Shown piece by piece: positions 1 to 61,600 of a stretch of DNA of 64,000 nt. The notes under the pieces are model-generated. The model was given only the letters and a program-made list of their open reading frames with translations. It did not search any database and was not told where the DNA came from. Every line of letters starts with the position of its first letter. The stretch's first letter is position 1. The stretch is from contig CM022672.1 in the NCBI GenBank assembly GCA_012295275.1, positions 35,402,001 to 35,466,000 on the forward strand. Direction: 5' to 3'. This DNA comes from Chrysomallon squamiferum (Eukaryota; Animalia; Mollusca). A program made the position numbers and the translations under genes.

Positions 1-2200
1 AGGCAGTTACAAATGATTGATACTTCACTATTGACTTCAGTGCCTTGAAGCCAAACACAGACAGTGACATCTTAATAAAACATCATCAATCACAACATAC
101 TTACTCCACACAACATACTTACACAATACAACATTTCTACTTCTGTCAACATACAGTAGATTCTAAAATCCCTGAAATATTGTAAGTTCTGTAAAACTAC
201 AGTATATTCTCAAGATTTTATTCTTCAATGACGTAATATAGTGTGAAAAAAAGTAAATGTTTTAAAAAGAATTACTCAGTGTTAGGTGAAACAGGATAAG
301 TCATTAAAAATAAGAATTCTGACAGCTTTATTAACACTAAATGGTACAGAAAATAAAGTCATTTAGAATTGAATGGTATATTTCTTTTCTTTAACTGTAT
401 TTAAAAAAATAAAAATTAATAATAAATAAAAAAATAAAAATAATTTTGTTCTTTTCACTTTTAATTGCAATAAAGCATGCCTTCATGTAGATACATACAC
501 AGAACACACACACACACACACACAAACAATTAATATATGTGTATGTAACTATTTTATGTCTTAACTATTAAAACTTAAAATCAAAACTGAATTCCTGTAA
601 AATGTTTAATTGTATCAAAAAATCACTTTAAGAATTTAACCCTGAAGTCTATGAAAACTATCCACCTGACACATTGGTTTATTTGCTGAAACTGCAGTGG
701 GCTAACTAGATAACTAACTAACTAACTAACTAAATGACTCTGTCTGAAGGACTCAGCTATGAGACTGGTGACAGATTTAATTCATCAAGTGGTTGAGGTG
801 AAAGACAAACAGTTCAAGAGGATTTCTCAGTAAACAAGATATCAAACCCAGACAGATGGCAGAGAAATCCTGTTACTAAAAAACAAGTGTGTACAGTATG
901 TGATCTACCACTGATGTATAATGAGCTGTTTAACATTCTCTACAGCTTATTGTTTGTACACTGCCTTCGTGTTGATTGTTCATCCCTCTATTGTCACTGC
1001 TGATAGAAAGCTGGTGATTAGGGTCATCAACAGTTGATCGTGTATATTGATCTGAATAGCCCTTCATCAACGCTCAGTTTCATTCTCATTAAAGCAAGGA
1101 GGACAGTGTCAATACTGCTTTCCCTCGCATGAAAGAGAAACTAACCAGGCAAGACTTTTGTCAACAAACTCAGACATGAAAATCTTTCGGCAATTTCATT
1201 TTTTTATAAGGGCTGGAGGGGAGAGAGTTTTGTCAAAGAAAGCAGTGAAGCCGGAGCTAGGAGAGTGTTTTAAAATTGTGTTTTTAATGAAGCGAAGTCC
1301 TCAGATCTCTCTCACACTTACTGCAGGAAGCAGAACAATGGGAGGTGACTGAAGCAGGATTCTGGTTAATGATACATGAACGTATCTTTCAGTGTGAAAC
1401 CCTCCACGTTTGTAGATGACTGAGTTCTCTGAGGACAGCTCATTATCTCAAGTCCACTCAGAAAGAAAACTTACACAGAAGAAAGTGGTGAACTCAGCTT
1501 TAAAACACTCGTGTTTGTGATATACTCTCATAATTAGTGACACCTGTCTCTGTACAGCTTTCTCCTTCTTCCTGGTCTCAAGTCAGACTAACTTCATTAT
1601 TTTAAAATCTGAATTTAAATTTATTAGACTAAATTCATTATTTCACAGTCTGAACTTAACATTAGAATGACTAACTTCTTCATCTTTGTTTTTACAGTGT
1701 AAATTAAGAGAATAACTAAATTCATTATTTTACAGTCTGAAGTTTCATTATAAGTCTGATTAACTTCATTATTTTATAATCTGAAGTTAACATTATTAGA
1801 CTGACTTCATTATTTTAGTCTGAAGTTATTATTATTATTATTAGTTTTAACATTGGCTCTTTAAGTACTTTTCATCAGATTTTGTCACATGCACATTTTA
1901 CATATTATAAAATTTTAGAGGAGTAAAGGGTGGAACAGAATATGCAGAAAAGGAACAAAATTCATTTTAGCATCTGCAGCTTTTATACTGCTTTATATTT
2001 TTACTAAGTTTATTTTAAAATTTTTAAAACATGGCCTTTTGAAACTAGCTATATGTATATAAAACTTTTAAAACTGAGTTTTCACTTGACAAGTCTGTTT
2101 GGAAAGACACTCACTTACACAAGATGAATGGTTGAGTAATAAAACATCAGACACAGTCTGACAAGACAAATGATAACACAGTCTCCAGCTGACACACAAT

Positions 2201-2296
2201 ATGTCACACAAAGTGTCATACATGTTCCCAGCTTCCCAGAGTTCCCCTCAAGCACAAACATCTCAGTGCAGAGTTTGTCTCAATCTGGACAGACTG
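2201..2296 (+). CDS. dae4-like putative first coding exon (MSHKVSYMF...CRVCLNLDRL)
   Basis: ATG at 2201 with an in-frame TAA upstream at 2174; donor CTG|GTATAA at 2297 is phase 0, matching the next exon. It could instead start at an acceptor at 2188. Confidence 0.5.
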
Positions 2297-3277
2297 GTAT
2301 AAAGTGGTCAGCTAACATTACAAGTGTCACAGTGTAGTTTTATATCATGTGAACTACACAGACTGGTATAAAGTGGTCAGCTAACATTACAAGTGTCACA
2401 GTGTAGTTTTATATCATGTGAACTACACAGACTGGTTTGAAGTGGTCAGCTAACATTACAAGTATCACAGTGTAGTTTTACAACATCATGTGACTTTTCA
2501 TGTGTATGTATGTTATATATATATTTATCAATGTATAAAGGTGTCAGACATAAGTGCATATATGATTTAATGTTTAAAAAAATAGCTACTATGAACGTCA
2601 GTTTTAATTTACTGTTTTGTTTTCCTCAGATTCCTCTTCCCTCATTCAGCCAACTGAAGGCTCACTACCCCGGCTACTGGAACTTCGGCGGCCGTCTGCA
2701 CAACCACCACCTCATCCACGTCCTGGGTGTGGACAGCAGCCTGCTGCTTCACGACACCAGCGCACTGCGCCTCTCCTACGCACTCAACAAGATCGGCGGC
2801 AACCACTCCCTGGGGACTCAGCTCATTCGACTGTCCAAGTTCGGACGAGACAGTGTCCCGGGGAGGGATGGACACCAGTACATCTACCACCCCATCGCGT
2901 ATGGCCCCTACCTAGCTGACAAGTACGGCTACCCCTCCATCTCAAAGCTGCACCAGACAGACGCAGACAACACCAAGAAGAACTTCTGGGGGAAGCAGGG
3001 AATCCTCAGAGTCATCACCTACACCAAGAAGCTGAACCGACCCAAAGGTCACGTGGCATTGTGGGATTGCAACCACTTCCACCAATCAAAAGACTGGATT
3101 GTTGATCATGGACTGATCACTGTGGAATTCTGGGAATCGCCAGGTAAGAATTCTCTTTATATAAAACATGTTTACTCTATTTAGTGTAACTCTAAAACAA
3201 TCAAATCTGTACTGTACACATGTATATCATGTGCACACGCACAGCCATAGACATGCATAAATACGTACATGTGAGTG

Positions 3278-3335
<58 letters not shown>

Positions 3336-3353
3336 CACACACACACACACACA

Positions 3354-3385
<32 letters not shown>

Positions 3386-3389
3386 ACAG

Positions 3390-3421
<32 letters not shown>

Positions 3422-3426
3422 ACACA

Positions 3427-3464
<38 letters not shown>

Positions 3465-3827
3465 TTAACACATACACAGACACACACACACGCTAACACA
3501 CACAGACACACACACACGCTAACACAGACACACACACACATGCAGACACACACACACACTAACACACACACTCACACACACATGTTGAAATGATGATGAC
3601 TAACACACATGAATAAAACATCTGGTCACTGTAAGACTATTTTCAATGTTGCAGACTCGGACTGTGAGAACAAGGACATGAAGCTGCTGAACACAGAGTA
3701 CAACTCCTACGTGTCAATGCTGCGGCCGACTGCTGAGTCGCGTCTGAAGAGTCTGTTCAGACACAAGTCCTGGAAGTCACATTTTGTCCAGTTCAACTAC
3801 AAGAAGTACAGAAAACAACACAACTAG
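2201..3827 (+). CDS. Tae4-family (T6SS peptidoglycan amidase effector)-like protein, dae4-like; 3 coding exons 2201-2296, 2630-3143, 3655-3827; about 260 aa
   Basis: GT-AG junctions join in phase (0 then 1) into one ORF. Motifs LPSFSQL, DTSALRLSYALN, GRDGHQYIY, FWGKQGIL, GHVALWD and VEFWE follow the recalled Tae4 pattern (RPSF..NxCAIRMSYxLN..GxDGxxYIY..GKKGII..GHVTLWNG..FW). The 5' start is uncertain. Confidence 0.8.
2290..2490. repeat. Tandem repeat, about 70-bp unit x3, each starting with the dae4-like exon 1 donor
   Basis: cagactggtataaagtggtcagctaacattacaagtgtcacagtgtagtttt repeated. Confidence 0.85.
2630..3143 (+). CDS. dae4-like exon carrying the whole Tae4-like domain
   Basis: Acceptor ttttcctcag|, donor CAG|GTAAGA; 514 nt open, GC-rich, Tae4 motifs. 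Confidence 0.9.
3279..3581. repeat. Imperfect (CA)n microsatellite in dae4-like intron 2
   Basis: Direct reading. Confidence 0.95.
3655..3827 (+). CDS. dae4-like last coding exon, cationic C-terminal tail
   Basis: Acceptor atgttgcag|, phase 1 continues the frame (DSDCENKDMK...KKYRKQHN*). Confidence 0.8.
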
Positions 3828-5400
3828 CTCTACACCTTCTCCAGCATCATTCCTTAACAAGCATCTGACACAAACTACATTTAAAAAAACATCATCACTG
3901 TTTGTAAAACTGGACTTCATAGACTCTCCTTCAGAAGCCTGGGACACAGATAACTACTGCACACACAACAAAAAAAAACAAAAAAACCTGTTCTCTGCCA
4001 GTTCCAGTGATTCTCATCATTCCAGAAACAGACAAAGAACAATTAAAAAATGTGCTTCTAAAGGAGAAATGGATACTGACTGAACTGGCAGTAATCAAAG
4101 CTTTTGTCTATCCTAGCTAAACAGGATATACAAAGTTATTAGTAAATAAACAATATTCTGTACTGATAAATGGCAGAGATGTTCCTTGAAGAAAACAGAA
4201 AACAACAACTGTGGGTTATGTAAGAGTCGAAGCATAACCATGTGTGAATAATTCATAATAATCAACTAGTGGCAAAAACAAAACTGTCAGTGTAACAGTC
4301 ACTATTTAGTGTAACAGTCACTACTGTTACAAGGTAACAATAATTAACTTGTGTAACAGTCACAAAGTCATTGAGTTTGTGTTACTACTAAGTGTAACTG
4401 TTACAGTGGTTACAATCACTAAGTGTTACAGTGGTTACAATCACTAAGTGTAACAGTGACAAGCTGAATGAGTTTGTGTAACAGTCACTAATAAAAGACT
4501 TCCTGGAAAAAACGCTGATTCTGAGAAAATTCTGAAAGTGCTATAATCAGAGTGAACAGTGAAACCAAAGCAGGTGAAAGCAGACGTGCCTGATTAACTT
4601 TACAAATGTCTTCATTTTAATTCAGTGTCTTTATTTAAGCTTCTTGTGGCCATAATGTGTGTACAATCAGTATTAATTTATAACCTGTACAAAGTTGATT
4701 ATATTTATCTAATTTTTTTTAATGTGATTAATGTTAGTTTTTTCATGCTCAAGGAAATTTCTGTTGTGAATAATCAGATTTGTAGTGTTAAATGTTTTTT
4801 AATTATTCTATCAGTAAATCTGAAATCAAACTCATCTTTTTTTGTGATTTTGAAACTAAGTTAATCCTTTTTGTGATTTTTGAAACATAATTAATCTTTT
4901 TTTGTGATTTTTAACTAATTTTTTTTTTTTACTTTGAAACTAAATTTCTCCTTTTTGTAATTATCTTCATCACAATTCAAAATAAAGTTTCAGTTTTATT
5001 TTAAAACGTGAACTATTTTAACTAATACAGACAAGGGTGTATTTGTAACATAAAACTGATTTTTCTACAACTGCTTGTTCTCACATGATCTTGACACCTA
5101 TAAAATAAACATAAATCTCAAATTCTTACTTTCCTGAAAAAAGATTTATAAAAATACTGTGACTACTAACATAAATCTTCAACTTTAACAAATTTGCTGT
5201 TTCATTTTGAACTGCAGATTAAGAAATAAAATTCTGTAGCAATAATAAAGCATTAATATCTGTTTCTGGATATAAAAGTTTTATAATCACAAACATTCCT
5301 CTGTATTGTTTGCCATGTTAACACTATGAACTAGCTAAGCATGGTATCCATGGATACATTCCCACAAAGAAGTGAAAACAAGCAGTAGACAGTCTGCAGA

Positions 5401-5532
5401 TTTCTTTCTAAAGTGCCTAGATACTGAATATTACCAGTCTATTTTCTTTCTAAAGTACCTAAATACTGAATATTACCAGTCTATTTTCTTTCTAAAGTAC
5501 CTAAATACTGAATATTACCAGTCTATTTTCTT
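5401..5532. repeat. Tandem repeat, about 42-bp unit x3
   Basis: ttttctttctaaagtacctaaatactgaatattaccagtcta repeated. Confidence 0.85.
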
Positions 5533-5860
5533 TTAAAATTCTTTCTGATAACCCAGAATCTTTAGTCAAATTGTGTGCTGGCATTTTTAATTTTAACTGA
5601 TTCTCGTGAAAAAGAGAAAAAAACAAAAAACAATGGTGCTAATGTTGTAACAATGATTAAGTTAGAAGAATCATTTTTTGTGTTGTGATTTTTTATTTTA
5701 ATTTCGTACTGATACCTCTGTGTTCTGTATTTTCGTGTTGGTTGTAACATGTGTGTTTGTGTTTTAATATTGTGTTGTGTGTATGTGAGTGGATTTGTGT
5801 GTGTGTGTGTGTGAAAAAGACAAAGACTAACATTAGTTGTTTTAACAAAGAAGATCATCT

Positions 5861-50608: not shown

Positions 50609-53271
50609 CTGGTTATTTGATGATGAGAGACAGTGTTTCATTAAAAGGGGCTGACAACTGTTAACAAGCTGCCTCTAATTGTTTTCAATACATTACTAGT
50701 TGAAATATGGCAGCTCCACCAGATGTGATGACAGCCACACCCAGGTGATAATTTCCTAACAACCCTGATCAGAGTTTGGCAAGCACTGGTAACTGCTACC
50801 TGCACTCAACACAACAATGGCAATTGTCTAATTAATGTGCATACAGCTTGTTTTCATTAACATTAACAAAACAACCTATAAAATAAAAAATAGTTGAATA
50901 TTTATAAAAGCTCAACAGACAGTAATTAGAGAAATATGTTTTTGTTTTGTTTGAAACAGTGCTTAATGAGGAAACAGACTAAGTATTAACACAACAGTAT
51001 ACTGTTTGTGTGTGTTAATTACAAACACACCATTTTTAAATACATTTTTATTGACTGCAACTGTACCAATAGATGTATTTAACAGTTTTCAACCAGCTGT
51101 AGAGGTAAAAAAGGAAATTGTCTAAACTAAAAATATCCAAAGCCGCAGTTGCTATTTTGAAATTTTACTTTGATTAGTTGTTAATACAACTTTGAGTTGC
51201 TGTAGACATCTGTGAAACTATATAAAAATTAATTTATCTGCTTTGAAGGAAATCTTTGCCTTGGTGCCTAACATTTCTGATTAAACCTAAGCAAAATTAG
51301 AGATAAAACATAATAAAGAAAAAAGTTAATTTGAAGCCTAAATGCTTATTTATAATGAGGAATTTTTGTTGTTGCTGTTTTATCTATGCTGTAAATAGCT
51401 CTTCTATTTTTTCTCTTCCTTTTCCTTTTTAGTTTATTTATTTATTTACTTTTTTCTTTCTGTTTTCCACTGGCATCACAGTTTTGTAATTGTGCATCTA
51501 TTATTAACAAACTGAGTTCAGTGACTGTTAAGTTTTCTTTACATGCTAAGATATACTGCCAGGTTTTTTAACCAGTCAACTGTGAACACAGCTAATTTGG
51601 AAATAACTTGGTGCATAGTAAATAAGTCTTGATAATTAGCATGTTGATGTTTTTCTGCTTGAATTATCTTCTCTCTTCTTTTTTTTTACATTTTAGGGGC
51701 ATTTATATATTTTTTATTTTATTTTTTTTATTATTTGACAAATGACACTTCCTCACCAACTTACTTGGGTACTAGCTAGAGAGAGTACCTCAGAAATGAT
51801 AATATATATAAATATTATCCATCATATATAAAATAAAATTTAAATAACAATCTGACAAACAGAATCTTTTCATTTTTTCATCATATTTAATGGTTTTTAT
51901 TATTTATTTTTTTCTAAAGATTTTTGAAACTGCTAAGACAAAAGTTTTTAAAGAAGGATGTCAAATTTTCTGTCATATACTGTTGTATAAGGTTAAAAGT
52001 TTTAGTTTTCTTTTGTAAAAAAAAAAAAAGAAAAAATGAAGCAGAAAAAAACAATTATTTTCCTGGGTGAAGAAGCTGTTTCAACTGTACATATAAAACA
52101 GAAGGATGAGTAATTTAAACCATGTGATAATTTGACAAAAACATCACTGATCAGACATCCACTGGGAAAACACTAGATGTGGGAAAGAGATGCCTGTAAT
52201 GGAAGTGTCACTGTTTTCTGTGCAGATCAAAAGAACTTCTTCCCAGTTCAGAAAGATATTGCCTTACACTTTCTACACTGCTGCACACATATTTCACCTG
52301 GGGCTTTTTTTTAGTGTTTTGTCACTGCCTCCATTTCACAGTGCTTGCATAACTACAGTGGCCATTTTGTCTAATAAACACTTATAATTAGCTGTAACTT
52401 CAAAGATCAATACTCCTTTCTCACAGTTTGGAGGATTACTGCTTGAAGAAAGCTGAATTATTTTTCTAGATTAAAAGATTATCTCAACTGAAGAGATTAT
52501 CACACCTATTATCTTTTTATCTTCTGCTGTCTTGTCAGAAAAACAATCTTCAGGCTCTTTTACAGTTAGGATTATAAGTTATAAACTGGAGGTTGTTAAA
52601 TTACCAAACTTAAAAGCCGAGAATCAGCTGCTGCATATTTTGTATAGAAATTTATGGTAGCAAACTGAATGATGTCTCATAATATTACAGCTAGCCATAA
52701 ATAGCCGATAATACTAAAACTGTCTGTAATAGCCCAAACTAAAGTCAGCATGCAAACTTCTGTTAAACAGACCCAGAATAGGTTTCTCTATTTTAATTTT
52801 AAAAATTTTGTTTTTGTTTTTTTTATTGTTGTTTTCTTTTCTTTACACTATTTTTCAAAATTTTATCAAATACAAACAAGAAATTTTAAAAGTAATACAT
52901 TATGAACATTTGATATTACAAATAGATATTAATTAGAAAGATTTAAAATGGATTTTACTTTTTTCTTCTTTTTAATTTATTTATTTAATGCAAATGAAGT
53001 GACTCATTAGTTGATTATAGTTCATATGAAAATATTCGACAACACATAAATGACATTTGTAATTTTATAAAATGTGTTTCCATGGTAACAGCAAGCTTCT
53101 GTTAACTTTCATTATTTTTCAACATATCTTAAAAATTGCAAAATGCATTTGTGGGGTTTTCTTCATCAAAATATTTTTAAAAACTAGCGAATTTTTACAG
53201 TAATTACCACTCCAGAGAATAATTTTTAAACTTTTAAATTTTAAAATTATAAAATTTTAAATTTTTCAGTA

Positions 53272-53482
53272 ATGTCTTCATCAACCATCCGTCGCAGACA
53301 GACGGAGGAAGAGAAAAACGTGCATCGACTGCGCAACGTGATGCCAGACAAGCTGGCCGCCATGTGCAAAATGCATTTGTCTTTCATCCTGGATCTGAAC
53401 GGAACCAAACTGGATGAGCTGCAGGACGGAGAAACCAAACATGAAAAGAAGCGTGGGTGTACATCATCTTCAAAAAAAAAAG
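53272..53482 (+). CDS. ARHGAP19: ARHGAP19-like coding exon 1
   Basis: Acceptor at 53269, ATG at 53272, donor at 53483. Confidence 0.85.
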
Positions 53483-55644
53483 GTTTGTAAATTATTTTAT
53501 ACATATTTCACTTGATCTTTATTCTTTCTTTTTACTTGTTCATTTTTGTAAGTTTGTAATTTTGTATAATTAATTTTAAAAATTGTTATTTGTTTATCTT
53601 TTTTCATTTCTTCTCACTTTTTCTCTTCTTTTCTGAAAAATAAATTTTGTCTTAATTTTATTTTTATTATTGTTATTGTTATTTATTTATTTTATAATTT
53701 TTGTTTTTAAATGTGTCTGTTAATAGTTAAAACTGTTTTTAGTAATCATTTCCATTAGTTAATTATTATAAACATCTTACCAGTAAGATTAAAATAAATA
53801 GGTGAAAATGTTAAATTAACAATATAATGGTTTTCACATACTCAGATTTCTAGATTTATGCAAATTTGTTAAATGTGATTAATATATGTCATGTAGTTCT
53901 ACCAGTGGTAATGTTGTAGGTTTAAATCAGATTATCTGTCTTTTATATAATGTTACTTACAATCTAATATCTCAAAGGTCTGTTTTTCATCCTTCATGAA
54001 TGAAGCTTGTAGCTGTATGTAAGATTGTGTGTGGGTGAAGTAACATTATGCTGAAGTTAGTTCAAATTATATCACTTGCTGATTACTCATTACCTTATCA
54101 GGGAACAGGCCCCAACCAAATTCAAAATGAAATCTCTTTAGATCTCCACTTTCAAGAATTCATTTTATTCCCTCTTTTATTTGAAAGGATTTTTATGTCA
54201 TTGTCCCAAAGGCCACTTGGTTGTGGGTTTGTGGGATGTCATTGAGAGTGGACTGTTTAAATCAGCTGGGTGCCACATTCAGGCTGATCCCTGGTCCAGC
54301 CCCTACATCTAATGGTTGACTAGCGAGATTGGAGATAGTAGTTTCAATATCTTTTCACTGCTGGAGAAAGACAAAGAGTCTATTGTAATCCACAGGACAC
54401 TGACTATTCAATTGGGCCTTCATTAGACTTGTCTTGTCTGCAGTTTATGTGGGCCAAGTAGTTGTTTTACTGCCCCTGTCTTTGATGTGACATCTGACGA
54501 AACATTAAACTCTGAAGATATTCACTACTTTATCTTTATGGACAGTGGAGATTATCTCTTTTTTATGTGTTTACACATGATAAACCACAAGTTTAAACAA
54601 AATAATGATTCTTTTATGGGATTGAACAGAATTCTGCAGCCTTTTCCAGTTGTAAATAATACCAACTCATTTTAAAAGTAAATATTTGCAGCAGAATGTT
54701 ATTTTGTTAATAAAATTCTTATTATTATTTTTATTATATTACATTTTTTAACCGAATTAAATTTAAACATAGATTTAGGTGACTGATAAAAATAAATTAA
54801 TTAATTAAAAAATATAGCTTTGATTAGCAAGTATTTCTCTATCTTTAATTTAAAATTTTAATAAATGTTTTTAAAAATAGGTTTTAACCACACAGATGTA
54901 GCTTATTACAATGAAATTTTTTTTTTTTTTTCTTTTTTTAAATTTTTTAATTTAAAAAAAAAAGTCATCCACATAAAAATGTATAAAAGAAAATGATTTA
55001 GCCCAGGAAACGTGACAGAAATGGATTTCACACAGATTTAATGTTCTGCAAGATGACTTCTACTGACCTCGTATCACAACCACATAGTTAGCAGATTTAC
55101 TCAATACTGAAACTTCATGTACAGCATCATAAATGGCATCTCTGTTTCACTGTTGATGACATAAAATTGTATATTTTACATTTAATTGGTATAAATTTGA
55201 CATACTTAATTGCATTTATAAGAGAGGAATTAATGTGTAAACGAAACTTATTTGTGCAATAAAATATTTTCAAGTTAATTTACATGTTAACTTTTTTTAT
55301 TTGTTTTGCATTTTATAATTTTTCTGCAGAACATTTTGTGTGTATGTGTGTGGTGCTCAATATTAATATATATATATATATAGATAAAGATATATATTTA
55401 AAATTTGGGGTTTATTTTGGATAAGAACCTATTTGAGCCATGTGTAAATGATGAAGATGTTGCTGAAAATTATATTGTGTGTGTGTTTATTTGTGATAAA
55501 AGTCTGTTTAGAGACTGTCTAAATGAAGAACATATTACAGAATGTGTGTGTGTGTTAAACTGTTTATTTCAGATAAGAGTCTAAATAAGTAAATGTTGCT
55601 GAAAATTTTGTGTTTATTTTGTTAATGAATATATATATATATGA

Positions 55645-55693
<49 letters not shown>

Positions 55694-58600
55694 AAACTGT
55701 TTTTTTCAGATAAGAGTTTGTTTGGAGACTGTCTAAATGAAGAAAATGTTGCCCAGATTTATCAGCTCATTGAGTTCCTAGGAAGACCAGAAAGTAAATA
55801 TTTATATTTTTAATTAACAAAATTACCTGTTTATTCAAATCATAATTAACAATTTTTCCATCAAAGAAATTTTAAATTGTAAAGAGGTACCTTTTACTGA
55901 TTGCATGATTCATAATAATAATAATTGTTGGTATCTAAAATGAATATATTGAAATAATTTTTGAAAATATATATATAATTAAAAAGTATTGTAAATATAA
56001 AGAAAATACATTTTCTGAGATTTTTTTTTCACTGTAAGGAATTATTTAATACTATATTATTAAATTCTTATTATTCAGTTATAGTGTTTAATTTCTGTTA
56101 TTAATGTCTGTTATATTAATTGTATATGTAATAAATTTAATTTAAATATTTTTTAAATTCTGGGGTTTTTTACTGTAGGAATTGTTTAATTACTATATTA
56201 TTATTACTGAACTACAGTGTTTAGTTTCTGTTATAAATGTCTGTTTTATATTAACTGAATTTATAATAAATTTAAATAAATATTTTTTTGTTTAAGATAT
56301 AAAAACTGAAGGTCTGTTTCGGAAGTCAGGCAACGTCTGTCGACAGAGACATCTGAAACAACTTCTCAACCAGAACGCGTCCAACCTCGGCCTGGAGGAC
56401 GGGACGTTTTCACCCCACGACTGTGCAGCCACCCTGAAACACTACCTGTCAGAACTACCCGAGCCGCTGCTCACTGAGAGACACACAGAGGCACACAGAC
56501 AAGTCATTGGTGAGAGACATTTGCATTAAAAATACGTGTCTTGATATCTTCATGTATAACAAAGAATCAGTAACAGATATGATTACAGGAAAACATTTCT
56601 TTACAGATATATATACATATATATATAAAATCATATCTTGTATCTGTGTGTTTGTGTGTGTGTGTGTGTTATCTTCAAAGAAAAGAATTCTATTTCTATT
56701 TGCTTTTTTTTATTATATAATTAGTTTTATCAGATATTCTCGGTAATTTTTGAAAGAAAATTTTAAGAATTGATTTTACTATTTATATCATTCATGGAGA
56801 CAAATTACTATATAGTTATTGTTATTTTTGTCTTCTTAAAATGTAATTTCCCATGTTAACTGTTAAAAAAGACAACAGCAACAACATGATTTATTTTCTT
56901 ATTATTTTAATTTACTGTAGGTAAATTCAATGTAACTGTTGTTTTCTAGAACTGCCTAACAATCTGATGAATTCTGCAAAGAGTCGAGTCAGAGAAAAGC
57001 AGCTGAAAGCGATGCAGCTGTTGATTCTGCTGTTGCCGAGGGAAAATGCCCTGCTACTCGAATGTCTGCTGGACCTGCTGTACCGAGTCTCCATGGTTAC
57101 AGAAAACATGATGACTGCAGAGGCTCTTGGCACTATTTTTGCTCCTTCTCTCCTTTGCTCAAAGAAGGTAAATAAAAACTTAACATTTCAAAACTTTAAA
57201 AACTCATTTTCTTTACTGATATAAGTTTTGTGACTCTTTTTTTTTGTTCTGTTCTTCTGTTCCTTTTGAATACATCTCCACTCTATATTTATAAATTCTT
57301 AACAATCCTAAATTGACATAAAGCATGCAAGAAATTTCTATAAATATAAACGTAATTTATTTTAGCAGATGCACCAAATTAAAAAAGTTACATAGTCTAG
57401 TTAATTTGCATAACTGAACATGTGATTTTTATTTTTATTTTTTTTGATAAATTAATGGTTATAAATTTGTTTTAAAAATTGAAATTTTTCTAATCTTGTT
57501 GATGTTTTTTCTTTGCTTTCAGTTGTCACCAACAGAATTTCACATAGAATCCTGCCATTCCACAAAAATTGTTTCCTTTTTAATAGAGAACACCCACCAC
57601 CTGTTCACGGTTTGTTTAAAAATAAACTTTTATATTAAATTTATCAAAATCATTTGCAGTAAAAAAAAAATTAATATTAAAGCCATGTTAATGTTAGTGA
57701 ATTTTTTAAGGTTTGTTAATCAGTTGTTTTTGGTTTTGTTTCACTGTCAAGTCAAATATTTTTATTTTTATTTTTTTTTTTTTTTTTTGGTTTTTTATTA
57801 ATAGAATTCTTGCAATGGAATATTTTTTGAAGAAAATTCAAATGTTTATAAAACTGTTTTGTTCAGATACCTCGAGAGCTGGCAGTTGATGTAGCAAACT
57901 TCTGGACGAAGATGGAAACTCCAGACTACAATCACGACAAATGTGACATGCAGAAAATCAGCAGTCACTTCAAGGCAAAGGTAACTTGTCTTTAAATTTC
58001 CTTTTATTCTTGTTTATTCTTTGAGTCAAAATGAAAACTAACATTTAGTTAAATGTCCTGAGAGAAAATAAATTTATTTCAAAATTGGCCAAAATTTTCT
58101 TAAAAGTGTATAATGAAAGATAGCTTTTATTGATTAATATTTCAATAAAAGAAAGATTTGAAGTTTTGTGACAATTACAAGAAAACAATAATTTATTTTG
58201 TTACAAATGAAATTTCCCTAAGACACTTATAGCTAGTCAGTCCTACAGACAAAAATAACATGAAATGTAATAAAACATGCAAAAACAAATATTTCAAATA
58301 CAAAACATAATATCATTACAAAAAGATTGAAAATGAATGTATATTTTTATTAATATTATATTACATTTCACTACACAGTTTAAAACTGGATATTTCAAAT
58401 ACAAAGAGTAATATTACATAAAGACTGAAATGGAATGAATATTTTTATTAATATTATATTACATTTCACTACATGGTTTAAAAATACAAAGTACTATAAA
58501 GAGAGAAGTAATGTTAATGTTTTACAGAAGTGTAGCAGTGATGCTGACGGCCCACCCATCTCCACTGTTGTCAACTACACCATCAACCGCCACACCCCTA

Positions 58601-61600
58601 CAAAGGAGCAGACAATTTCAGACACGCAGATAGCTCTGGCTCAGCTCTACGCTCATGTCCAGGCCATGCCAGACTCCAGCAAGAAGAAGAAACTACTCAA
58701 ACAGGTTTCAAACATTTTCAAACATTTTCTTCACCGTTTTTAATCTATAGTCATTGATGTAAACATTTATCAGAATTTTCAGAATGTTGAAATATAATGG
58801 AATTATTTAGTATTCTTCTGCTTCCAGTAATGCATAATTCTTTTATATATCGAAGTCATTTTTCTTTTTTCACCTGTATTAGTTCTTTGTTGTAATTTTC
58901 TTTTTTCACCTATATTAGTTCTTTGTTGTAATGTTATGTGTTTATTGTTTCAGTTCAACAGAGCTAATGGACTGCCCATAAAAAACAAACATGTCAGAAG
59001 CAAAACATTTGGTGAATCTCTGAAGGTATATACACACACACCTGTACACACACTCAAACACATGTACACACATGTACACAAACGCAAACACACATACACT
59101 CAAACACATGTACACAAACGCTCACACACATGCACTTACAACCATGAATAATATGTTTCTATGTATATCAAATTGAAATGTTTATTTAATTAAAAAAAGA
59201 TTAAAGATAAAATTGCTTAATTCTGAAAACAAAGGCTTTCTTGTGGAGACTGATTTAAAATGGTAAAAACTGATGTCAAACTAAAATACTGCAAGCAGAT
59301 ATTTAACTGTATAAACAAAGGAAGAAAGAAATCATCACACTTTTCTAGTGACTGTTGTTGATAACCTGTGATGAATAAAAGTTAAGTAATATCTTAACAC
59401 TGTTATTTATACTCTTTACTTTATTTACAGAAACACTTTCCAGTTCTGCACAAACACAGGAGACAAGGCTCTAACGAACCCTCTCTCATTTCTAGCTGGG
59501 CTTTGTCAAAGGTAAAACATCACTTTGTAGATTTGTAAATCTTATTAATTATTTAATATTTATATTATTACATATCTCAGATTCTTAAATATTATCTAAC
59601 TGTACATGTCAGTTTAAGTTAAAAAGTCTCAAAAGGAAACCCATGACCCAGTGAATATGAAGATTTTAGTTAAAGCCAAGTAGTTATGTTTTATATTGTA
59701 AGTCATCTCCTAGTTTAAAACTTGTTTACTCTTCTGTTGTGCAGAGGTACAGTGATGGGGAAATGAGGGGGTAGGGGGCTGTGTTTCCCCGGCACAGGTA
59801 TAAAAGGCAACAAAATTTTGTCTTTCATTTATTAAAAAAATTTGTTATAATTTTTAATGAAGTTAATTTTGTGTAGACTTTGTCTCTCTGTTGTAAACTC
59901 TGTTTTTGGCCTGGGAAAAGTGGAAATTGATTCTTTATTTCAGAGGATATTAAATGATAAAAAAAACAAATGTTTCAAGGGTAAAATGCATTCATCCCTG
60001 GGCTCAGAAAACATGAGGTACACTGCTGTGTTACTTTATATAGATGTTACTTTGTATAGATGTTACTTTATATAGATGTTACTTTTTATAGATGTTACTT
60101 TTTATAGATGTTACTTTATATAGATGTTACTTTATATTTCTTGTTTGTAATTTCTGAGTGGTTATTTTATATTTCTTATTTATAATTTTTGAAATGTTAT
60201 ATTTAATATTTCTCATTTATGGTTTTTGATATGTTTTATTTAATTTCTTGTTTCTAGTTTTCTGAGATGTTGTATATTTCGTATTTACTGATTTTGTTTT
60301 TAATTTCTTGTTTCTAGTTTTCTGAGATGTTGTATATTTCGTATTTACTGATTTTGTTTTTAATTTCTTGTTTCTGGGGTATTATTTTATATTTTAAATT
60401 TCAGCCATTTCTGAAGGAATGTACTTACAGTGACCAAGTAGATGTGGGAGAAAGTGACCAGTCCACTCCTCAGAGATACAGGACACAGGTCAGTCACAAA
60501 TCTAAATTCATCTAGTAACATTATTAACCAAAGAAAAATCTTAACTGATATATTACTTGTAATGCCAGGAATATATTAATACTATTAATATTGTTTGTTA
60601 TTATTACTGTTTTTGTTGTGATATTATTGCTATTATTATTATTATTATTATGATATATATTGATTGTTCAAAATAGAAATAGTGCTGATAGTAGCAGTAA
60701 TCTTTTTATTTATTTTATAAAAACTTTTATATTTTTTGTATCTGCTTTATTGGATTAACACTGATGAGCTTATAGATTATTAACATAATTTACATATTTA
60801 TTTTTCTGTCACCAAGTAAATAAATGATTTGTATTCCAGCCGCCAAGTCCTGTGACACACTTTGCAGAGTCTGACCACAGCACACCATCGTCACGCAGCC
60901 CACGCAAGCGACGAAGTAGCGAAGACATGAATGAGAATGCCCCCCCATCTAAAGACAAGAAGTCGATAGTGCTGCCCTCTCTGGAGAATGAAATACACTA
61001 CATACCTGTGAACTTCAAAGCAAAGAAATCACTCAAGTACAACACACCTGATGGGCTGAAACCAGTAGCCATGGTGTCTCCCATCACACAAACCATGAAA
61101 AATGCGCCGTCTGATGTACAGGTAAGGGTCAAAGAGAATATCAAATGTTCTTTAAAAAACTGTCTGCTAAATCGAGAAGATTTCTGGAATCTAACTATTG
61201 TCTGTGACAGTTACCTTGGATATTGTGTCACTAAAATAAATAATAAAAAATGCTATTTTCTGGAATTTAAAATAATTAGCAGGTAAGAATCAAGAAGGAT
61301 AACTCCAACAGCATCCCAAAAATTTCCTAACAAAAATTTTCTAAAGGGAGGACATTTTAGTATGTGTTAAACTGTTGTCAGTGATTGTTATCTTGGTTAT
61401 TGTTTCACTAAAATCAATAATGTTATTTTCTTGTCTTTAAAATAAATGATCTATTAAAATGACTGAAGCTGTTAAACTCTGATGCAGGAAGGAGGTAGTA
61501 TTCAGTTATAATAAGCTTGTGTTTTAGAATGCCAGATTTTGTTGTGTTTTTGTTGTGTTTTTTGGATGATAATTGGGTCTCTGTGTTTGTGTTTTTCAGA

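What the first reader, a model, noticed from the sequence alone, without database searches (positions are those of the whole stretch)
2201..3827. Intron-containing animal gene encoding a bacterial T6SS Tae4-like amidase domain (dae4-like domestication)
Seen: a spliced ORF whose middle exon carries, in order, LPSF, SALRLSYALN, GRDGHQYIY, GKQGIL, GHVALWD and EFW. Established: these resemble the Tae4 family of NlpC/P60-like peptidoglycan amidases, and tae genes are known to have transferred to eukaryotes as 'dae' genes, with dae4 reported in molluscs/annelids. Inference: this is a domesticated antibacterial or peptidoglycan-directed immune gene. Canonical introns and host-type microsatellites argue against bacterial contamination. 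The whole domain sits in one 514-nt exon flanked by two unrelated exons, as expected if an intronless bacterial gene was captured.
Basis: partly seen in the sequence, partly recalled or inferred. Interest (0 to 1): 0.85.

Follow-up and report, generated by a model that had tools for sequence, protein, structure and literature searches.

The report
Disarmed bacterial amidase kept by molluscs
A spliced, transcribed gene, likely from a snail, encodes a protein predicted to fold like the bacterial cell-wall-cutting toxin Tae4, but the cutting cysteine is missing here and in every close relative found, so molluscs and related animals likely kept a disarmed bacterial enzyme, probably to bind bacterial cell wall rather than cut it.

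Summary
The gene is real and Tae4-like, but two parts of the finding need correcting. Exon 2630-3143 passes Pfam Tae4 (E 4e-10), and its model matches solved Tae4 structures (Z 18.0, rmsd 2.2 A). RNA contigs splice at 2630 and 3143/3655. The proposed first exon (2201-2296) is wrong: transcripts join 2630 to a signal-peptide-like sequence not found in the window. The Tae4 catalytic cysteine is Ser here. None of 132 close relatives covering the site has Cys (Ser 112, Thr 9, Ala 8, other 3). Named relatives are molluscs, a brachiopod, an annelid and a nemertean. They form one supported clade with shared intron positions and signs of purifying selection. It falls apart from the Cys-bearing anemone, amphioxus and acorn-worm Dae4, although one animal origin is not rejected (AU p 0.37). 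Cys-to-Ala or Cys-to-Ser mutants of related enzymes are inactive. Best reading: an old, likely secreted pseudo-amidase that probably binds peptidoglycan, like mycobacterial RipD. I found no paper on it, but could not read Chou et al. 2015.

The parts
2630..3143 (+). Coding exon with the whole Tae4-fold domain (171 codons + 1 nt; phase-0 acceptor, phase-1 donor)
   Evidence: Pfam PF14113 E 4e-10, 40.3 bits against cutoff 27; RNA contigs start and stop at these bases in 4 of 4 runs; model pLDDT 92.9; Z 18.0 to Tae4 4hfl
2759..2761 (+). Ser44 (AGC) at the position of the Tae4 catalytic cysteine, first residue of the predicted helix 44-55
   Evidence: Aligns with the Cys of N-A-C-P-I-R-M-S in Salmonella and Enterobacter Tae4 and with the Cys of anemone P0207; coordinates; helix
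3050..3052 (+). His141, counterpart of the Tae4 catalytic histidine
   Evidence: Aligns with G-H-V-T-L-W of Tae4; His in 128 of 134 close relatives covering the site, Arg in 5, Tyr in 1
3068..3070 (+). Cys147 (W-D-C), clade-specific cysteine; likely disulfide partner of the exon-3 Cys (inferred)
   Evidence: Cys in 134 of 134 close relatives covering the site
3144..3654 (+). GT-AG intron with a CA microsatellite (3281-3582); donor position shared with relatives
   Evidence: an equivalent phase-1 GT donor in 13 of 13 genomic loci L002-L014 (several loci are near-copies, sites inferred from consensus)
3655..3827 (+). Last coding exon: conserved Cys (3663-3665), then a basic tail (net +8 in the last 30 residues), stop TAG
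   Evidence: RNA loose end behind 3143 equals the start of this exon; 51% identity to the Gigantopelta tail, E 4e-19; charge
1..2629 (+). Likely intron of the same gene; the true first exon(s), with 5' UTR and signal peptide, are not in the window and probably lie upstream of it
   Evidence: RNA contigs carry 273-426 further bases 5' of 2630 that lie on nothing in 1-3260; 0 matches of a 17-base piece in the window
2201..2296 (+).

Best explanation
The gene encodes a likely secreted protein with a predicted Tae4 amidase fold that has Ser in place of the catalytic Cys, so it is likely a non-cutting pseudo-amidase that probably binds bacterial peptidoglycan in its retained cleft. Shown: the spliced transcript, family membership, clade-wide absence of the Cys, one clade spanning named molluscs, Lingula, Owenia and Tubulanus, shared intron positions and conservation. 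Inferred: a bacterial Tae4-family gene entered an animal ancestor no later than the common ancestor of these phyla. It gained a signal-peptide exon, a disulfide-type Cys pair and a basic tail, and lost its nucleophile. It has since been kept as an extracellular peptidoglycan binder (sensor, opsonin or sink for wall fragments), with the basic tail helping it stick to anionic bacterial or mucus surfaces. Binding, secretion and the immune role are untested.
For: Family and fold: Foldseek E 1.8e-8, TM 0.74 to 4hfl; nine Tae4 entries at Z 17.0-18.0; next entry Z 7.3. No Cys in 132 of 132 close relatives covering the site, out of 144 examined, against Cys in 91 of 106 distant hits. The site varies (Ser, Thr, Ala, Asp, Lys, Glu) while its neighbours D42, A45, R47 and S49 are invariant in 95 of 95 full-length mollusc-like sequences. 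Eight relatives keep His with Ala at the site, and five keep Ser with Arg in place of His, so neither residue is kept as part of a dyad across the clade. Loss of activity in related enzymes: nvDae4 C63A (PMC8713801), StTae4 C44A and H126A (PMC3695027), Ssp1/2 C50A (PMC3852654), Trichomonas NlpC_A1 C179S (PMC6299479). Precedent for a non-catalytic peptidoglycan-binding NlpC/P60 protein: RipD (PMC12067865). Clade support 100/99 and 99 under a mixture model. Selection: dN/dS 0.05/0.23 (L002-L003) and 0.002/0.10 (L009-L010), and 3 of 3 RNA differences in the exon are silent. Secretion: hydrophobic N-termini in 12 of 15 relatives checked; the RNA loose end reads like a signal-peptide end.
Against: No binding, activity, localisation or infection-response data exist here. 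In molluscs the site is always hydroxyl-bearing (Ser 103, Thr 9 of 112), His is kept in 95 of 95, and Ser uses both AGY and TCN codons; this fits selection for a hydroxyl. Identity of 80% to limpets and 65-68% to octopus and chiton is high for an immune effector and fits a host ligand equally well. I could not inspect the cleft of the model. The bacterial donor is not identified, and most Cys-bearing rows of the trees have no taxon label.
Confidence: 0.5

Rival explanations
1. The protein is a dead enzyme co-opted for a host job unrelated to bacteria, for example an extracellular-matrix, mucus or developmental factor that binds a host peptide or glycan.
For: Very high conservation across mollusc classes, with 49 of 171 positions at least 95% identical to this protein. 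Apparently few copies in most named species. Clade-specific inserts relative to Tae4. A sister-group protein is fused to a Hint module (P0136, E 3e-44), a hedgehog-like layout.
Against: Peptidoglycan is an invariant ligand, so a binder of it can also be conserved (inference). The motifs around the old active site are the most conserved part. Both Nematostella tae4 homologs, including the one without the Cys, are induced by cGAMP through NF-kB (PMC8713801).
Confidence: 0.27
2. In molluscs the protein is a working Ser/Thr-His hydrolase on a papain-like scaffold, acting on peptidoglycan or another amide or ester. Silicatein, a Cys-to-Ser cathepsin L, is the recalled precedent.
For: Ser or Thr in 112 of 112 mollusc-like sequences covering the site. 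His141 in 95 of 95 and Asp/Asn155 in 95 of 95. Ser is reached by both codon families. The mollusc branch has a long stem.
Against: Cys-to-Ser inactivates a related eukaryote-acquired NlpC/P60 enzyme. Ala, Asp, Lys or Glu at the site, or Arg for His, occur in the sister lineages. Thr replaces Ser in 9 sequences, including bivalve second copies. A helix-start position favours small hydroxyl residues anyway (established knowledge).
Confidence: 0.17
3. It is an ordinary active Cys-His amidase like nvDae4 that lyses bacteria, possibly using Cys147.
For: Tae4 fold and His kept. Cys147 is invariant.
Against: The canonical Cys site is Ser. Cys147 lies six residues after His141 on the same predicted strand (138-147). 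It co-occurs with a second invariant Cys in the last exon (73 of 73), which suits a disulfide in a secreted protein.
Confidence: 0.04
4. The sequence is bacterial contamination or a recent unexpressed insertion.
For: The exon is GC-rich (0.56) against a window of about 0.30.
Against: Other host exons are also GC-rich islands. Spliced RNA. Orthologs across molluscs. Shared introns. Host neighbours. Only 1 weak relative (27%, E 1e-4) among 25 candidate stretches in the scan of 185,579 prokaryote genomes.
Confidence: 0

Closest known systems
Bacterial Tae4 amidases (Pfam PF14113; Enterobacter 4hfl/4hfk, Salmonella 4hff/4j30, Serratia Ssp1 4bi3, Agrobacterium 6ijf)
   Same: Fold over the whole domain (Z 17-18, rmsd 2.2-2.5 A, 146-149 residues); R-x-S-Y-x-L-N, G-x-x-G-I and G-H-V-x-L-W motifs.
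   Different: 17-25% identity; catalytic Cys replaced by Ser; spliced; signal peptide, extra Cys pair and basic tail; no Tai4 or T6SS context.
Animal Dae4 (nvDae4 of Nematostella, PMC8713801; anemone, lancelet and acorn-worm proteins)
   Same: Animal, secreted, Tae4-derived; a Cys-less paralog also exists in Nematostella.
   Different: Those keep Cys/His (12 of 12 rows) and nvDae4 cleaves peptidoglycan. They form a separate clade (100/99) about 24% identical to this family, although a single animal origin is not rejected (p-AU 0.366).
RipD (Rv1566c) of Mycobacterium tuberculosis (review PMC12067865)
   Same: NlpC/P60-type domain with substituted catalytic residues and a C-terminal extension; reported to bind peptidoglycan without cutting it. 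Best functional analogue.
   Different: Bacterial, a different NlpC/P60 family; no sequence relationship tested.
Tick Dae2 (bioRxiv 10.1101/2020.04.10.036376) and Trichomonas NlpC_A1/A2 (PMC6299479)
   Same: Peptidoglycan hydrolase genes taken from bacteria by eukaryotes.
   Different: Different families, catalytically active, Cys retained.

Membership tests
Tae4 family (PF14113) | Profile score above the curated cutoff | tested here: met
   40.3 bits against 27, E 4e-10
Tae4 family (PF14113) | Tae4-type NlpC/P60 papain-like fold | tested here: met
   Predicted model pLDDT 92.9; Foldseek 11 matches at E <= 0.001, all Tae4-family; Z 18.0
Active Tae4/Dae4 amidase | Catalytic cysteine at the start of the first core helix | tested here: not met
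   Ser44; Cys in 0 of 132 close relatives covering the site
Active Tae4/Dae4 amidase | Catalytic histidine | tested here: met
   His141 aligns with the Tae4 His
Active Tae4/Dae4 amidase | Third polar residue orienting the His (Asp137 in StTae4, Asp135 in Ssp1) | tested here: inconclusive
   By simple offsets the matching residues are Gln152 and Ala143; Asp155 is conserved (91 of 95), but its position could not be read from the model
Active Tae4/Dae4 amidase | Cleaves the D-Glu-mDAP bond of peptidoglycan | not testable with these tools
   Needs a sacculus assay
Domesticated amidase effector (dae) genes | Integrated in a eukaryotic genome, with introns, transcribed | tested here: met
Domesticated amidase effector (dae) genes | Eukaryotic secretion signal | tested here: inconclusive
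   Only the last 10 codons before the domain were seen; 12 of 15 relatives have a hydrophobic N-terminus; no signal-peptide predictor was run
Domesticated amidase effector (dae) genes | Nested among bacterial homologs (horizontal origin) | tested here: inconclusive
   Nearest Atlas clusters are 90-100% bacterial, but the trees are unrooted, the clade is not placed inside a named bacterial group, and no donor was found
Published dae4 clade (anemone, lancelet, acorn worm) | Groups with those proteins in the tree | tested here: inconclusive
   Separate in the best trees; a union of all animal-type groups is not rejected, p-AU 0.366
T6SS effector-immunity pair | Adjacent Tai4 immunity gene or T6SS locus | tested here: inconclusive
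   The neighbours found are ANAPC4 and a RhoGAP; no Tai4 hit among 71 minus-strand frames below 16,400; plus-strand frames and the region upstream of the window were not scanned

The most novel reading that the evidence does not exclude
This is an undescribed, independent capture of a bacterial Tae4 gene by the ancestor of molluscs, annelids, brachiopods and nemerteans. The enzyme was disarmed and turned into a conserved secreted peptidoglycan receptor, a pattern-recognition family built from a bacterial weapon, or in molluscs into a new serine-type hydrolase.
Probability: 0.3. Interest if true: 0.8.

Novelty: new variant of a known kind. Interest (0 to 1): 0.55.

Why it matters
The domesticated amidases I could read about (tick Dae2, nvDae4, Trichomonas NlpC) work because they kept their chemistry. 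This family lost the nucleophile yet is kept across four phyla and stays 65-89% identical among the named gastropod, cephalopod and chiton relatives. That points to a new use for a bacterial toxin fold. If it binds peptidoglycan, it adds an unrecognised extracellular bacterial sensor to molluscs, including farmed oysters, mussels, clams and abalone. It can be tested with one small recombinant protein. It also warns that a Pfam 'Tae4' label on mollusc genes should not be read as antibacterial amidase activity.

Tried and rejected
Single-sequence search of solved structures found no Tae4 (1 match at E <= 10, a viral glycoprotein at E 0.99); the profile search did. An alternative first exon inside the window: I noticed a hydrophobic frame near 921-1010 by eye, but RNA contigs do not join it to 2630. 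Whether the gene is nested in ANAPC4: 71 of 77 candidate minus-strand frames below 16,400 were scanned (6 overlapping the Tae4 exon left out) and none hit ANAPC4, so the end of ANAPC4 is unresolved. No whole genome is held, so the upstream exon and paralogs could not be sought. Reads over the last exon and 3' UTR were not obtained, so the 3' end (about 4,160-5,420 if unspliced) is only an estimate from contig lengths. Contig depth was not used to rank expression. A wide structural search (pdb_via_wide) was not completed. Literature searches gave no paper on a mollusc Tae4-like protein; one search returned only papers without the amidase term among the 30 listed. Chou et al. 2015 (Nature, doi 10.1038/nature13965) was not available; its extended data may already show some of these genes. 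Earlier scan notes: none by sequence or place, and none holding the words tae4 or dae4. No complex was predicted because no partner is proposed.

Full report
Observation. The exon 2630-3143 is 514 nt, bounded by AG and GT, with GC 0.56 and third-position GC 0.74. It scores 40.3 bits on Pfam Tae4 (cutoff 27, E 4e-10); the two flanking exons hit no family. Logan contigs from four RNA runs (X1-X4, one study, at most four samples) each begin at 2630 and end at 3143. The letters that follow match the start of the exon at 3655, so the last intron is spliced as proposed. The letters before 2630 are the same in all four runs and are not the proposed exon 1. They read in frame as LAVLCVAGEH, like the ends of signal peptides in orthologs (VLYVASEP before IPLP in Gigantopelta). 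The contigs carry 273-426 such 5' bases, no joint inside 1-3260 was listed, and a 17-base piece has no match in the window at three mismatches. The true first exon therefore probably lies upstream of the window. The proposed exon 2201-2296 ends in a 69-bp tandem repeat, is not hydrophobic and does not align with the ortholog. The last exon does align (51%, E 4e-19).

Context. The window also holds ANAPC4 on the minus strand and a RhoGAP on the plus strand. The pattern scan of one genome per prokaryote species gave 25 candidate stretches and one weak relative (27%, E 1e-4). This is a host gene. The closest named protein is from the gastropod Gigantopelta aegis (89%), so the window is likely from a related snail.

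Family. The first search gave 110 relatives among 126 candidates. Named ones are gastropods, bivalves, cephalopods, a chiton and the brachiopod Lingula, all 'uncharacterized' or 'hypothetical'. A profile search of 1.84 billion representatives gave 143 hits. Of 30 proteins looked up, the named ones added the nemertean Tubulanus, the annelid Owenia, Branchiostoma and bacterial clusters; most carry no name. A search with the Exaiptasia protein P0207 gave 21 hits, named ones from anemones, lancelets and acorn worms. An AlphaFold2 model of the exon (pLDDT 92.9, pTM 0.90) matches only Tae4-family structures strongly. Foldseek gave E 1.8e-8 and TM 0.74 to 4hfl. VIA-align gave Z 17.0-18.0 for nine Tae4 entries, then 7.3 for Tae3. 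The Atlas search agrees. A model of the full Gigantopelta protein shows an N-terminal helix and less certain C-terminal helices.

The active site. Profile alignments put Ser44 of the exon peptide on the catalytic Cys of Salmonella and Enterobacter Tae4, and His141 on the catalytic His; the anemone protein gives the same register. I examined 144 close relatives (90%- or 50%-identity cluster representatives, many unnamed, so not independent species; one shorter Owenia isoform dropped). Of these, 132 cover the site: Ser 112, Thr 9, Ala 8, Asp, Lys and Glu one each, Cys none. 134 cover the His site: His 128, Arg 5, Tyr 1. Of 106 distant hits, 91 have Cys. In 95 full-length mollusc-like sequences D42, A45, R47, S49, G140, H141, W145 and C147 are invariant, while position 44 is Ser 86, Thr 9. 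Removing this Cys abolishes activity in StTae4 (PMC3695027, passages), Ssp1 and Ssp2 (PMC3852654, passages) and nvDae4 (PMC8713801, passages, section 8 and supplement rows). Cys-to-Ser inactivates Trichomonas NlpC_A1 (PMC6299479, passages). Against a simple dead-enzyme reading, molluscs always keep a hydroxyl there, and the Ser is AGY in the window and five loci but TCC in two.

Additions. Cys147 is present in 134 of 134, and a Cys three residues into the last exon in 73 of 73 spliced-form relatives. I infer a disulfide that ties the last exon to the domain. The C-terminal 30 residues are net positive in 14 of 15 relatives checked and +8 here, and 12 of 15 have a hydrophobic N-terminus.

Age and origin. 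Fourteen related loci were fetched. One (L001) is in spliced form. The other 13 all show a phase-1 GT donor at the equivalent place, and 12 of the 12 that cover the 5' end show a phase-0 AG acceptor, 11 at the same codon and one a codon later. These sites are inferred from consensus, and some loci are near-copies. Selection looks purifying: dN/dS is 0.05/0.23 and 0.002/0.10 for two close pairs, synonymous differences are at or near saturation for distant pairs, and 3 of 3 RNA differences in the exon are silent. Trees on 173 columns recover the Cys-less group as one side of a branch: 98 SH-aLRT with 136 rows, 100/99 with 83 rows, though the bootstrap had not fully settled, and 99 under a mixture model with 45 rows. 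Its sister is an unnamed group that keeps Cys but lacks His, or has Asp in place of Cys (98/89, only 84). The Cys/His anemone-lancelet-acorn-worm clade (100/99) falls among unlabelled Cys/His proteins. A probe row for nvDae4 reads by eye as N-T-C-A-I-R-L-S-Y-A-L-I-H, like that clade. Forcing all animal-type groups together is not rejected (p-AU 0.366), so one or two transfers remain open. Fragments were left out of the trees, the distant rows were recruited with a mollusc-built profile, and the trees are unrooted. Horizontal origin is inferred from the mostly bacterial family and the patchy animal range; no donor is named, and a T6SS role of the donor gene is not shown.

Mechanism. Most likely (0.5) this is a secreted, disulfide-stabilised pseudo-amidase that binds peptidoglycan stems in the old cleft without cutting, as reported for mycobacterial RipD (PMC12067865, passages). 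Rivals are a host, non-immune ligand (0.27), a mollusc Ser/Thr-His hydrolase (0.17; the silicatein parallel is recalled) and a normal Cys amidase (0.04). Loss of the classical Cys chemistry is well supported; what replaces it is not tested.

What is known. Domesticated amidases are established (bioRxiv 10.1101/2020.04.10.036376, passages; PMC8713801). I recall, and could not check, that Chou et al. 2015 placed dae4 in anemones, lancelets and acorn worms and dae2 in molluscs and an annelid; that paper and its extended data were not available. PMC8713801 notes a Cys-less Nematostella paralog, so Cys loss in a dae4 is not new in itself. Nine searches found no paper on this mollusc family; PMC4832377 and PMC6006793 (passages) added nothing. 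The library lacks most subscription papers, and public databases already tag many of these proteins PF14113.

Verdict. A real, expressed gene of the Tae4 family by sequence and fold, but not a member of the active Tae4/Dae4 amidases, because the defining Cys is absent. It is a new variant of a known kind.

Noticed in passing
protein P0136 (407 aa), cluster of 5 unnamed members: A Tae4-like domain (Cys kept, His replaced by Ser) fused to a Hint module (PF01079, E 3e-44): a hedgehog-like layout with a Tae4 domain in front. Its group is sister to the Cys-less mollusc clade.
   Followed up: partly
proteins P0138, P0140, P0142, P0147, P0153: A second unnamed group with Asp at the Cys site and Ser or Val at the His site; several sequences end as if read through an intron at the same place as in molluscs (by eye).
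   Followed up: partly
proteins P0141, P0263, P0266 (Branchiostoma): Proteins with two or three tandem Cys/His Tae4 domains; P0316 is labelled as C-type lectin domain-containing.
   Followed up: no
proteins P0077, P0078, P0069 and six others: Several bivalves carry a second copy (Mercenaria LOC123546857 and LOC123546859, Dreissena LOC127871095 and LOC127871096); nine sequences have Thr at the nucleophile site.
   Followed up: partly
window 16821-40481, minus strand: ANAPC4 exons (Pfam PF12894, PF12896); its 3' exons below 16,800 were not located.
   Followed up: partly
window 56296-57221, plus strand: RhoGAP-domain exons (PF00620), with further coding-like frames at 53245-53487, 58429-58740 and 60828-61100.
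   Followed up: no
window 1585-1837, 2289-2480, 4387-4461, 4828-4962, 5401-5537: Short tandem-repeat arrays (periods 25-69 bp) around the gene.
   Followed up: no
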